From positions 13,321 to 77,320 of the IMG/VR virus record IMGVR_UViG_3300035204_001594: a stretch of 64,000 bases of DNA. One strand, 5' to 3'. Positions 28,457 to 30,379 of the stretch are shown here, one piece after another. The notes under the pieces are model-generated. The model was given only the letters and a program-made list of their open reading frames with translations. It made no database searches and was not told where the DNA came from. Both the position numbers and the translations under genes were made by a program. Position 1 is the stretch's first letter, and each line of letters starts with the position of its first letter. The stretch is from a virus.

Positions 28457-28873
28457 TTAGTAGTCTTGCTCAAATACAACAGTAGATGAGTTATCGGGGT
28501 TTTGGAAGCTTCCCACTTCTTTAGCTAACTTTGTTGTGTCTAGTTTTAGCATAGTTATAGCTTCTTCGCGTGTAAGTGAGCTGCCAAACACCAGCGTCCA
28601 CTCATCTGTAAGGTAAAAATGTTCTTTAGAATTTGGTTCCCCTACCCCTAACGTAGATATATCCACATACCTACATATACCCCAAAACTCATCTCGACTA
28701 GCTCCACCTGGGGTAGTAGCCTCGACAGGAGAGCTGCGCCTTATTACCAGCAGCTCATTTTGAATAAGGGGGTCTGTGGCAAGAATACTAATGTTAAGTC
28801 TATACTGGGTATTGTTACTTACCTGAGAATCAGATTTTGTTAATGTTAGCTGTATTTTCTCGTTAGAGGACAT
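28457..28873 (-). CDS. Hypothetical protein; first gene downstream of the permuted intron
   Basis: 138 aa; AGGGACGGA upstream. Confidence 0.7.
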   Translation of the reverse strand: MSSNEKIQLTLTKSDSQVSNNTQYRLNISILATDPLIQNELLVIRRSSPVEATTPGGASRDEFWGICRYVDISTLGVGEPNSKEHFYLTDEWTLVFGSSLTREEAITMLKLDTTKLAKEVGSFQNPDNSSTVVFEQDY

Positions 28874-28900
28874 ATTTTTGTTCCGTCCCTTTATCGGGTT

Positions 28901-29218
28901 AAAACGGTGTCAAGCACAAACCTTGGGCTTAGCATCACTAGTCTTTTACAACATCGTTTGGATTACTTACGGCTTCATGTTACCGACAGTTTTGTTATCG
29001 CAAACTTCTTTAAAGCTTGCATCTACACGTCTCCGTATAGCTCGGACTATATCATCGCCTTGCGGCGCTGGGCGCTCATGGATCAAATTATTGTTGGGAC
29101 TCATCGATCTAGTCTCTGCACCTTCTGTAAAACCTTTGCCCTTTACAGCTTGGCTCAGGATTGTCCTCGGCTACGCCCGTTAGGAGTTTCCCTGAATTCA
29201 CCCAGTTTATACCGTTCT
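28901..29218 (-). ncRNA. Group I intron ribozyme (P7.1-containing), apparently circularly permuted
   Basis: P GAAUUCAGGGAAAC, Q AAUCCUGAGC, R GUGCAGAGACUA, S AUGAUAUAGUCC. P3 CUGGGUG/CGCCCAG; P8 CGCC-GCAA-GGCG; P9 CUAUACG-GAGA-CGUGUAG; P9.1; end GAUAACAAAACUG (28987). Candidate 5' splice site GCU/AAG (28931/28930) and P2 partner ACCGUUUU lie downstream. Confidence 0.88.
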
Positions 29219-29224
29219 ACTACA

Positions 29225-29253
29225 ATTATAGGGTAGGGGGGTCTGAGGGGCAA
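29225..29253 (-). promoter_or_regulatory. Sigma70-type promoter driving the ribozyme
   Basis: TTGCCC-N17-TATAAT; predicted start near 29218 coincides with the 5' P2 strand. Confidence 0.75.
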
Positions 29254-29263
29254 GTAGGTATAT

Positions 29264-30379
29264 TTAAAATATGGAGATACTTTCTCCACCTTCTGCTCTC
29301 CACTTATTCAACCCAATATCATCAGCAGTTGAACCGAACCACTGATATTGTGTCGGTATCCCTGCACCTATGATTGTGGATGTTCCGTCTGGTGTGAAAT
29401 CGAAATTAGCGGCATCTGTGTAACTTGGGTCTGTTGCAGAGATGTAGTCGTACATCGAAAGGTGGTCTGTACCAGCCATTGGTACATATATCTCTCCACC
29501 GTTTCCATAGAATGCATTATTATAGTGTCGTGTTTCGCAACTGCTCCCGACTCTTAATCCTTTGTTTGTATTGTTTGTGTGTAAATTGTTGACCCATACA
29601 CTCTGACCAGAACCTGAAATATATACACCATCATCATTTGAGTCAAATACACAGTTACAAACAACCGCACCATTATTGCCCACATATAAACCATCGTCAC
29701 CATTGTTGTAAAACGCACACTCTGCAATTCTTGCGGCTGTACCACATCGCAATCCGTCCCCTGTGTTATTATCAAACAAACATTTGTAATACATCGCAAA
29801 TTGTGTGGATTGGGTTTCACAACCAGAGTCACCATTATTGTCAAAACGACAATTTACAAAGTTCCAATAGTTTGCTGTGTTATTTGTATACACTCCGTGG
29901 GATGTTGCTTGTGTAAATTGGCAATTCATCCAATGAATATTGTTACTACTTGCAACAGTTGCCTCTAAACAATGCTGTGCTGTATCATTTGCATCAAATT
30001 TAAGGTGGGAAAATGCACTACCATCGGCAGTTGCTACTGATATTTCTACCATTGGTGTTGTACCATTTAGTCCTGTACCTAAAATATTGACAATAGTTCC
30101 ATCCACAACACCAGAATCATTCGCACCGTTGATTACAACTTCTCTGCTATTCCAAGTAATTGTGAGTTTTGCTGTGAGATTGTAGTATGTCGCATCATCA
30201 GATGTTTTCATAATGCGGAGTTCGTCACCATCATTTAATATACTTGCACCCGCAATTTCATCAAATCCTTTTTGGATTGTTTGCCACGCCGCACCAGTGG
30301 ATGTCCCGGCATTTGCATCGTCCCCGTTTTCGCCGTCCACATAGTAGATATTTACACTTGCACCATCGTATGAGGCCAT
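29264..30379 (-). CDS. Right-handed beta-helix (pectin-lyase-fold) tail-associated protein
   Basis: YYVDGENGDDANAGTS..AWQTI start; repeated NCxFDNNxxG rungs. Confidence 0.8.
   Translation of the reverse strand: MASYDGASVNIYYVDGENGDDANAGTSTGAAWQTIQKGFDEIAGASILNDGDELRIMKTSDDATYYNLTAKLTITWNSREVVINGANDSGVVDGTIVNILGTGLNGTTPMVEISVATADGSAFSHLKFDANDTAQHCLEATVASSNNIHWMNCQFTQATSHGVYTNNTANYWNFVNCRFDNNGDSGCETQSTQFAMYYKCLFDNNTGDGLRCGTAARIAECAFYNNGDDGLYVGNNGAVVCNCVFDSNDDGVYISGSGQSVWVNNLHTNNTNKGLRVGSSCETRHYNNAFYGNGGEIYVPMAGTDHLSMYDYISATDPSYTDAANFDFTPDGTSTIIGAGIPTQYQWFGSTADDIGLNKWRAEGGESISIF

What the first reader, a model, noticed from the sequence alone, without database searches (positions are those of the whole stretch)
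28901..29253. Natural circularly permuted group I intron with its own promoter, predicted to make an RNA circle
Seen (minus strand): promoter TTGCCC-N17-TATAAT (29253-29225), then AGAACGGU-AUAAA and a full group I core. Helices: P3 CUGGGUG/CGCCCAG, P4 UCAGGG/UCCUGA, P5, P6 with CUGUAAAG/UUUUACAG, P7 GAGACUA/UAGUCC (G-binding site), P7.1 GAUCGA/UUGAUC, P8 and P9 with GNRA loops, P9.1, then GAUAACAAAACUG (28987). There is no room for a 5' exon or P1 upstream and no gene is interrupted. Instead, 56 nt after that G comes GCU/AAGCC-CAA-GGUUUG, a P1-like hairpin with a U.G wobble at 28931. Next comes ACCGUUUU (28908-28901), which pairs 8/8 with the first nucleotides of the transcript to rebuild P2. 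The order is 3' intron half - exon - 5' intron half, opened in loop L2. Established: this is the topology of engineered permuted intron-exon (PIE) constructs, and natural permuted group II introns that make circles are known. Inference: the phage transcribes a stand-alone ribozyme to circularise a small RNA. I know of no described natural group I example, but could not check the literature. P1 pairing on the exon side is imperfect, so the exact splice site is less certain than the core.
Basis: partly seen in the sequence, partly recalled or inferred. Interest (0 to 1): 0.96.

Follow-up and report, generated by a model that had tools for sequence, protein, structure and literature searches.

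The report
Stand-alone rearranged group I ribozyme
A marine phage carries a complete self-splicing-type (group I) RNA enzyme that interrupts no gene, has its own promoter and has its parts in a rotated order; this arrangement has not been described in nature for stand-alone group I RNAs, but what reaction it performs is still unproven.

Summary
The core observation holds. Window 29218-29001 (minus strand) is a genuine group I ribozyme core (Rfam RF00028, 71 bits). It lies between two complete genes and directly behind a promoter. That promoter keeps its hexamers and its 17-nt spacing in five sequence variants, while the spacer sequence itself drifts.

Nineteen conventional relatives all have a local P2 hairpin where this RNA has only the 3' strand (AGAACGGU). 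Its partner, ACCGUUUU, lies about 310 nt downstream inside a 19-nt block that is as conserved as the core. So the RNA is circularly permuted at P2.

A second full copy (L013) comes from a phage whose flanking genes are only 65-69% identical in DNA. It shows 7 compensatory pair changes and no broken core pair, so the fold is under selection.

The P1-like hairpins fold no better than shuffled sequence. A small RNA circle is therefore possible in this phage, but it is not the conserved function.

My best reading is a promoter-driven, permuted ribozyme leader of the downstream operon that probably cuts itself off the mRNA. First readers noted the same stretch in an overlapping window of this genome; nobody had followed it up.

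The parts
29264..30379 (-). Upstream gene: complete 371-aa right-handed beta-helix (tail-fibre/spike-like) protein. It is not an exon.
   Evidence: PF13229, E = 1.2e-17. 77 homologues, nearly all of 345-390 aa and covering about the full query; all 15 aligned end in a conserved E-x-[IV]-x-x-F.
29271..29289 (-). Weak terminator-like hairpin plus U-run overlapping the last codons of the upstream gene. This is the stretch that Rfam's global alignment forced into 'P1'.
   Evidence: In L013 the forced P1 falls on a different, non-homologous stretch with low posterior probability.
29225..29253 (-). Sigma-70-type promoter TTGCCC-N17-TATAAT. The predicted transcript start is at about A29218.
   Evidence: The hexamers and the 17-nt spacing are kept while the spacer varies in L013, L007, L029 and contig X19 record 2. 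Ribozyme-less relatives have TTGACT...TATAAT at the same spot.
29211..29218 (-). P2 3' strand AGAACGGU, the first nucleotides of the predicted transcript.
   Evidence: It occupies the position of the P2 3' strand in 19 conventional relatives. It is invariant in 4 DNA copies, while the 6 nt before it vary.
29000..29210 (-). J2/3 (AUAAA) and the group I core. P3 29205-29199/29074-29068. P4 29195-29190/29160-29155. P5 29185-29182/29167-29164. P6a 29148-29141/29132-29125. P7 29114-29110/29049-29045. P7.1 29109-29104/29086-29081. P8 29067-29064/29059-29056 (GCAA loop). P9 29040-29034/29029-29023 (GAGA loop). P9.1 29020-29014/29006-29000.
   Evidence: RF00028. RNAalifold with L013 shows compensatory changes in P6a, P8, P9 (two) and P9.1 and no broken pair. 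DNA identity is 94% from P2 to P7, against 65-69% in the flanking genes.
28976..28999 (-). Linker GAUAACAAAACUGUCGGUAACAUG holding two candidate terminal guanosines, G28987 and G28976.
   Evidence: 71% identical to L013. CU before G28987 can pair with AG of J7/9 (29042-29041); L013 has UU and AA at the same positions, which is one covariation. Relatives follow the same P9.0 rule. G28976 is followed by AAGCC, which can pair with the guide region.
28919..28975 (-). 57-nt segment specific to the window.
   Evidence: Absent from L013. It has no match elsewhere in the window.
28909..28938 (-). Hairpin at the position P1 would take, stacked directly on P2. Its 3' strand UGCUUGAC (28916-28909) is the conserved guide-like strand.
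   Evidence: Present in the minimum-free-energy fold but no better than shuffles (z = -1.28). UGCUYGAC is conserved 7 of 8 in L013.
28901..28908 (-). P2 5' strand ACCGUUUU, which pairs 8/8 with 29218-29211 (G29217.U28902 is a wobble pair).
   Evidence: It lies inside the 19-nt block 28916-28898, which is 95% identical to L013, while the rest of the leader is 42% identical.
28457..28900 (-). Rest of the leader (ribosome-binding site AAAGGGA at about 28892-28886), start codon 28873-28871 and the complete 138-aa gene, the first of six small genes.
   Evidence: 20 other homologues of 116-159 aa, most 135-143 aa. The scan finds no promoter between the ribozyme and the ATG.

Best explanation
This is a functional, stand-alone group I ribozyme that is circularly permuted at P2 and forms the 5' leader of a phage operon mRNA.

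Shown:
- Transcription from a conserved sigma-70-type promoter would start at about 29218, which is the 3' strand of P2.
- A full catalytic core follows (P3 to P9.1).
- The 5' strand of P2 (28908-28901) comes only after the core. Pairing of the transcript's first 8 nt with this strand closes the whole ribozyme.
- The place normally taken by the substrate helix P1 then lies at the 3' side, directly next to a conserved guide-like strand UGCUYGAC.

Inferred:
- The ribozyme uses guanosine to cut in this P1-position helix. In the window this would be after U28931. The cut would sever the ribozyme from the mRNA of the six downstream genes and leave that mRNA starting with the added G.
- In this phage, a terminal G (28976 or 28987) and a P10-type pairing (AAGC(C) after G28976 with GCUU/GGUUU) would also allow the second step. 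That step would join U28931 back to 28975 or 28986 and release a 45- or 56-nt circle, as in engineered permuted intron-exon constructs.
- The only other full copy lacks that segment, so the circle is at most a lineage-specific by-product. The conserved role is more likely processing or control of the operon leader.
For: - Core: RF00028 at 71 and 65.9 bits.
- No gene is interrupted on either side.
- Promoter hexamers and spacing are conserved across five variants with a drifting spacer, and conservation starts exactly 7 nt after the -10. Relatives without the ribozyme have a promoter at the same spot.
- All 19 conventional relatives with the identical P3-P4 23-mer have a local P2 hairpin just before J2/3. 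The window and L013 have only its 3' strand.
- An 8/8 partner lies downstream. It is invariant in L013, formed in both minimum-free-energy folds, and reached by about 2% of shuffles.
- The partner sits in a block that is 95% conserved, next to leader sequence that is 42% conserved.
- Selection on the fold: 7 pairs changed on both sides, 8 on one side, and none broken in core helices. Flanking genes are 65-69% identical, the core 94%, and P9+P9.1 64% but fully compensated.
- The scan finds no other promoter before the operon.
- Relatives of the core occur in several marine metagenomes.
Against: - Only two full-length copies exist, and the closing helix never varies between them, so it has no covariation support.
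- The P1-position hairpins of the window and L013 are not homologous and are no more stable than shuffles.
- L013 lacks the proposed exon and 5' splice site, and I could find no canonical 5' and 3' splice-site pair in it.
- The two candidate terminal G's are each supported by a different single argument: P9.0 covariation for 28987 and P10 for 28976.
- The near-identity of the first 170 nt could partly reflect recent transfer between phages and not long-term constraint.
- The transcript start is predicted, not measured.
- There is no evidence of catalysis.
Confidence: 0.5

Rival explanations
1. The RNA is a permuted intron-exon element whose conserved purpose is to make a small RNA circle.
For: In the window all the parts can be drawn: a terminal G (28976 or 28987), a 45- or 56-nt segment, U28931 in a U.G pair, AAGCC repeated after both G28976 and U28931 so that both can pair with the same guide, and then P2.
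Against: - L013 lacks 57 nt, including the exon and the P1 5' strand, yet keeps a selected core.
- The hairpin is no better than shuffles.
- The 'cargo' has no open reading frame and no match elsewhere in the window.
Confidence: 0.15
2. The RNA is a 5'-truncated group I intron that no longer catalyses anything. It would be either a decaying relic or a fold kept as a stable structured leader, for example to protect the mRNA 5' end or to bind a protein or guanosine.
For: - There is no convincing P1 in either copy.
- L013 has no usable splice-site pair.
- The ribozyme always sits at the very 5' end of an operon mRNA.
- Promoters inside phage introns that give P1-less transcripts are known from T4 (from my own knowledge).
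Against: - A decaying relic is contradicted by 15 substitutions in stems with no broken pair, and by unchanged joining regions and G-binding P7.
- A mere stabilising leader would not need the catalytic junctions conserved at about 100%.
- The conserved 3' partner of P2 and the guide-like strand are unexplained by simple truncation.
Confidence: 0.22
3. The closing helix is P1 itself, not P2. AGAACGGU at the 5' end would be the guide, and ACCGUUU|U (the U.G pair is G29217.U28902) the cleavage site. This is the layout of engineered self-targeting circularising ribozymes. The cut would release the mRNA at 28901, and the segment from the terminal G to 28902 (85 or 74 nt in the window, 28 nt in L013) could circularise.
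For: - All the needed elements are present and invariant in both copies.
- The only wobble pair of the helix is the transcript's second nucleotide, as in 5'-shortened Tetrahymena ribozymes (from my own knowledge).
- An engineered Tetrahymena design with the target inserted downstream of the ribozyme exists (PMC10415121, abstract seen).
Against: - By position, the strand is the P2 3' strand in all 19 relatives, followed by the same J2/3.
- In the canonical fold P2 points away from the active site, so a U.G pair 6 bp down that helix would be far from the G-binding site (inference from published structures).
- This reading leaves the conserved UGCUYGAC unexplained.
Confidence: 0.1
4. The RNA is a conventional group I intron whose P1 lies in the last codons of the beta-helix gene, as the Rfam global alignment draws it.
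For: Rfam aligns model positions 1-25 to 29294-29270, and the full-length score is 5 bits higher than the truncated one.
Against: - The gene is complete and ends as in all aligned homologues.
- The aligned 'P1' has several non-pairs. In L013 it falls on a different stretch with posterior probability 0.3-0.5.
- The 45 nt between the stop codon and the ribozyme are not conserved except for the promoter hexamers, and they contain no 5' strand for P2.
Confidence: 0.03

Closest known systems
Engineered permuted intron-exon (PIE) group I constructs (T4 td, Anabaena, Tetrahymena; reviewed in PMC4344496)
   Same: The order is 3' part of the ribozyme, then an insert, then the 5' part. The ends are created in a peripheral loop. 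The predicted products are a circle plus two linear intron halves.
   Different: This one is natural. It is opened in L2, and it is fused to an operon mRNA that would be released by the first step. The insert is not conserved and is absent from L013.
[quoted passage not shown] 2019, PMC6545197)
   Same: A natural group I ribozyme acting on a permuted intron-exon transcript.
   Different: In the coral case a normal gene in a circular genome is restored, and the permutation comes from where transcription starts. Here no gene is restored, and the DNA itself encodes the permuted order behind a dedicated promoter.
Natural circularly permuted group II introns of bacteria (Roth et al. 2021, PMC8637638)
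   Same: Stand-alone, never interrupting an open reading frame, conserved, and with a permuted domain order.
   Different: They belong to a different ribozyme class and use different chemistry. Their circles were shown experimentally; here nothing has been shown.
c-di-GMP-dependent group I ribozyme in a Clostridium difficile 5' UTR (summarised in PMC3984707)
   Same: A group I ribozyme domesticated as an mRNA leader, whose processing decides the 5' end of the message.
   Different: That one has the canonical order with an upstream P1 and aptamer. Here there is no room upstream and no riboswitch match.
Lariat-capping (GIR1) ribozyme
   Same: A group I-derived ribozyme without a 5' exon that sits directly upstream of an mRNA. 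It is closed by pairing of its 5' end with sequence beyond the cleavage site, and its product is the mRNA's new 5' end (from my own knowledge and PMC8637638).
   Different: GIR1 has a remodelled core and forms a branch. This RNA scores as an ordinary group I core, and no other Rfam family matched it.

Membership tests
Group I intron ribozyme (Rfam RF00028) | Conserved catalytic core: P3-P8 with the G-binding P7, and the J3/4, J6/7 and J8/7 joining regions | tested here: met
   71 bits against a gathering score of 50. 65.9 bits without any upstream sequence. The helices are recovered with compensatory changes.
Group I intron ribozyme (Rfam RF00028) | P1 with a U.G 5' splice site, and P2, both 5' of P3 | tested here: not met
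   There is no conserved sequence or P2 partner between the stop codon and 29218. The P1 drawn by Rfam is forced and inconsistent. All 19 relatives have a local P2.
Group I intron ribozyme (Rfam RF00028) | Interrupts a host gene that splicing restores | tested here: not met
   Both neighbouring genes are complete.
Group I intron ribozyme (Rfam RF00028) | Terminal guanosine with P9.0 pairing | tested here: inconclusive
   CU/AG in the window against UU/AA in L013, before G28987: one covariation. A second candidate, G28976, has P10 but no P9.0.
Permuted intron-exon (circle-forming) group I RNA | One peripheral helix formed by the transcript's 5' end and a strand 3' of the core | tested here: met
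   P2: positional homology; 8/8 pairing, invariant, in both folds; about 2% of shuffles reach it; it lies in a conserved block. There is no covariation, because it never varies.
Permuted intron-exon (circle-forming) group I RNA | 3' splice site, then exon, then a 5' splice site in a P1 helix, conserved among homologues | tested here: not met
   This can be drawn in the window only. The exon and the P1 5' strand are absent from L013. The hairpins are not above chance.
Permuted intron-exon (circle-forming) group I RNA | A circular RNA product | not testable with these tools
   Only assembled contigs were available for the runs. This needs in vitro splicing or raw RNA reads.
Lariat-capping ribozyme (GIR1) | A GIR1-type core (P15 pseudoknot and lariat fold) | tested here: not met
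   No Rfam family other than RF00028 matched at the gathering threshold or at E <= 0.01 on the stretch.
Allosteric riboswitch-ribozyme (C. difficile type) | A ligand aptamer upstream of the ribozyme in the same leader | tested here: not met
   The transcript would start at P2, and there is no riboswitch match in the window.

The most novel reading that the evidence does not exclude
Marine phages encode a natural, promoter-driven, circularly permuted group I ribozyme that is catalytically active. It would remove itself from the operon mRNA by guanosine attack at a 3'-located P1, giving the message a G-initiated 5' end. In some lineages it would also back-splice a short segment into an RNA circle. 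This would be the first stand-alone permuted group I ribozyme and a second, independent case (after the lariat-capping ribozyme) of a group I intron turned into an mRNA 5'-end processing device.
Probability: 0.35. Interest if true: 0.9.

Novelty: new variant of a known kind. Interest (0 to 1): 0.8.

Why it matters
Natural circular permutations are listed for hammerhead, twister, 5S rRNA and group II introns, but not for group I (PMC10085705). The one natural permuted group I precursor on record restores a mitochondrial gene (PMC6545197).

A stand-alone permuted group I ribozyme that is under selection in phages would show three things:
- Group I introns can be domesticated into gene-less RNA devices.
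- It would provide a natural counterpart of the PIE scaffolds used to make circular RNA.
- It would open the question of what a phage gains from putting a 300-nt ribozyme in front of an operon. Possibilities are timing, mRNA 5'-end chemistry, sensing of the guanosine pool, or a small circle.

The claim is directly testable with one in vitro transcript.

Tried and rejected
The contigs of the closest beta-helix relatives (P0001-P0005) and of the 20 dn138 homologues could therefore not be fetched. This is the main gap.
- Viral-contig searches found no further copy. I tried the core 23-mer, a P7 23-mer, the 3' block, the dn138 protein, the dn138 alignment and the beta-helix alignment. The genome-contig scan gave only conventional introns, mostly in tRNA genes.
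- Read laying on 2 DNA and 2 RNA-library runs returned assembled contigs only. It showed no joints and no ends that could be read as RNA ends. One RNA-library contig runs across the promoter, which could be read-through transcription or DNA carry-over. I draw no conclusion on expression, cleavage or circles.
- The promoter pattern alone is not significant in the window: 1 match found, 0.96 expected. Its support comes from comparison only.
- RNAalifold proposed a helix CAUG/UGUG, which becomes UAAG/CUUG in L013. I rejected it because the two strands are adjacent in L013, leaving no loop.
- The guide-like strand GCUUGAC could pair with a conserved 16S rRNA stretch recalled from memory (GUUAAGU). 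I dropped this idea because about 2 such matches are expected by chance in rRNA, and L013's guide differs.
- TTGACA within 28913-28908 cannot be a second promoter, because no -10 follows it in either copy.
- The 45/56-nt segment has no similar or complementary stretch elsewhere in the window beyond 10-mers.

Full report
**What is there**

On the minus strand, Rfam finds one family in the whole 64-kb window: the group I intron model RF00028 at 29294-29023, with 71 bits against a gathering score of 50. The window is part of a 77-kb IMG/VR virus record and this is its only group I hit.

RNAalifold recovers them on an alignment with a second copy: P3, P4, P5, P6/P6a, P7.1, P8 (GCAA loop), P9 (GAGA loop) and P9.1. 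P7 and the joining regions align to the Rfam consensus with high posterior probability.

**No gene is interrupted**

- The upstream ORF (30379-29264) is a 371-aa right-handed beta-helix protein (PF13229).
- It has 77 homologues, nearly all of 345-390 aa and covering about the full query. All 15 that I aligned end in the same conserved E-x-[IV]-x-x-F C-terminus.
- The downstream ORF (28873-28457, 138 aa) has 20 other homologues of 116-159 aa, most of them 135-143 aa.
- The 'P1' that Rfam draws in the last codons of the upstream gene is a by-product of global alignment. It contains several non-pairs. In the second copy it falls on a different, non-homologous stretch with posterior probabilities of 0.3-0.5. 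Removing all upstream sequence costs only 5 bits.
- That stretch is also a weak terminator-like hairpin with a U-run.

**Related copies**

- A scan of metagenome contigs with the beta-helix alignment gave 56 loci.
- One, L013, has the same layout in full: beta-helix gene, RF00028 hit of 77 bits, then homologues of the 138-aa and 176-aa genes.
- Two more, L007 and L029, carry the first 143 and 55 nt of the ribozyme directly after the stop codon, before the contig ends.
- About 30 other relatives have no ribozyme. Many of them have a strong TTGACT...TATAAT promoter and a dUTPase-like gene at the same spot, and others a short spacer and a different gene.
- Contigs from several marine metagenomes and two RNA libraries hold relatives of the core.

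**The promoter**

TTGCCC-N17-TATAAT (29253-29225) is found by the scan. By itself it is what chance gives: one match, 0.96 expected.

Comparison makes it convincing. The window, L013, L007, L029 and one metagenome contig all have ACTTGCxx, a 17-nt spacer of unrelated sequence, TATAAT, six variable bases, and then the invariant AGAACGGTATAAAC. A sixth partial variant keeps TATAAT at nearly the same distance.

Conservation therefore begins exactly where a transcript from this promoter would begin, at about A29218. The scan finds no other promoter between the ribozyme and the operon's start codon. Every operon mRNA would therefore carry the ribozyme as its leader.

**The permutation**

I collected 19 conventional relatives that share the exact 23-nt P3-P4 sequence. 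Three come from viral contigs and 16 from prokaryote genomes, mostly introns in tRNA genes.

Every one of them has a local P2 hairpin immediately before J2/3 and P3. At that place the window and L013 have AGAACGGU followed by AUAAA, with no partner upstream.

The partner, ACCGUUUU (28908-28901), lies about 310 nt downstream in the window and about 250 nt downstream in L013.
- It pairs 8/8, with one G.U pair.
- Both minimum-free-energy folds and the consensus fold form it.
- Dinucleotide shuffles of the 3' region reach it in 2.1% and 2.6% of trials.
- It sits in a 19-nt block (UGCUYGACACCGUUUUAAC) that is 95% identical between the two phages. The adjacent leader is 42% identical and the flanking genes 65-69%.

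So the RNA has the order: P2 3' strand, core, linker, [P1 position], P2 5' strand. The helix never varies between the two copies, so it has no covariation support.

I considered that this helix could be P1 itself, with the wobble pair G29217.U28902 at a cleavage site. I think this less likely, for two reasons: the positional homology just described, and the fact that P2 points away from the active site in the canonical fold (inference).

**Selection**

Between the window and L013, 70 predicted pairs include 7 with changes on both sides and 8 with a change on one side that keeps pairing. The only pair lost lies in the non-core helix that I reject below.

P9 plus P9.1 are only 64% identical, yet every pair is kept. 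The P2-to-P7 part is 94% identical. This is the signature of a fold under purifying selection. It argues against a decaying relic, although part of the near-identity could come from recent exchange between phages.

The proposed exon (28986-28931, or 28975-28931) and the 5' strand and loop of the proposed P1 lie in a 57-nt stretch (28975-28919) that L013 simply lacks.

L013 has its own small hairpin (GUUGA...UCGAC) stacked on P2. It is not homologous to the window's hairpin. Neither hairpin folds better than shuffled sequence: z = -1.28 for the window and -0.38 for L013.

In the window a coherent set can still be drawn.
- AAGC(C) follows both U28931 and G28976, so both can pair with the same guide, as P1 extension and P10 do in real introns.
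- For G28987 there is one P9.0 covariation: CU/AG in the window against UU/AA in L013. The conventional relatives follow the same rule.

A 45- or 56-nt circle is therefore possible in this phage. It cannot be the function that keeps the ribozyme conserved.

**Most likely mechanism**

- Shown: a selected, promoter-driven, P2-permuted group I core that forms the leader of a six-gene operon.
- Inferred: guanosine attacks in the helix at the P1 position, next to the conserved UGCUYGAC. This separates the ribozyme from the mRNA and leaves the message with the added G at its 5' end. In the window lineage a second step could close a small circle.
Each is given its own odds.
- A conventional intron is practically excluded.

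**Comparison with what is known**

- Reviews of natural RNA permutations list hammerhead, twister, 5S rRNA and group II introns, but not group I (PMC10085705).
- The only natural permuted group I precursor I found is the coral mitochondrial ND5-717 intron, which restores a gene (PMC6545197; cited in PMC8637638).
- A group I ribozyme used as a 5' leader is known from C. difficile, but in the canonical order and behind an aptamer (PMC3984707).
- The lariat-capping ribozyme is the closest functional analogue. It is group I-derived, has no 5' exon, sits in front of an mRNA and is closed by pairing of its 5' and 3' ends. Its core is remodelled, however, and no such family matched here.
- I therefore class this as a new variant of a known kind.

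**Limits**

- There are only two full-length copies.
- The read data were assembled contigs only.

Noticed in passing
L003, L005, L006, L008-L011, L015, L016, L020, L023, L034 (first ~60 nt after the beta-helix stop codon): Relatives without the ribozyme carry a near-consensus TTGACT...TATAAT promoter and a gene starting MKKLKYFKLHDD...FATDGSA (dUTPase-like by eye) at the same position. The end of the beta-helix gene is therefore a conserved boundary between transcription units in this phage group.
   Followed up: partly
window 29271-29289 (-): A terminator-like hairpin plus U-run lies inside the last codons of the beta-helix gene. It might end upstream transcripts just before the ribozyme's promoter.
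   Followed up: no
L058:4998-5117 and L058:6163-6457 (the L075 sequences printed are identical): A viral contig has a tRNA gene with a 51-nt insertion. About 1 kb further on it has a group I intron (97 bits) with an unusually long ~90-nt insertion between P1 and P2. The same intron sequence, at least over the ~245 nt printed, also occurs in a contig binned as a Spirochaetaceae MAG.
   Followed up: no
L064, L066, L068-L070, L072-L074, L076, L078, L079: Prokaryote genome contigs from many phyla have tRNA genes split in the anticodon loop by group I introns. These introns share an identical 23-nt P3-P4 sequence with the phage ribozyme, so the phage element belongs to this widespread intron lineage.
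   Followed up: partly
L062:1152-1375 (Ralstonia phage BOESR1, OR367448.1): The DNA polymerase gene is annotated as two separate CDS, 'DNA polymerase' and 'DNA polymerase I'. A group I intron (91 bits) lies between them, so the record appears to miss a spliced gene. Its post-P9.1 segment (GUAACACAAAGGUAC) resembles the linker of the window ribozyme.
   Followed up: partly
window 28886-28908 (-): The P2 5' strand CCGUUUU could instead pair with GGGACGG in the ribosome-binding region, as another first-reader note points out. In L013 the equivalent pairing needs a bulge, and a different 3-bp hairpin is predicted there. A switch linked to translation is therefore possible but weakly supported.
   Followed up: partly
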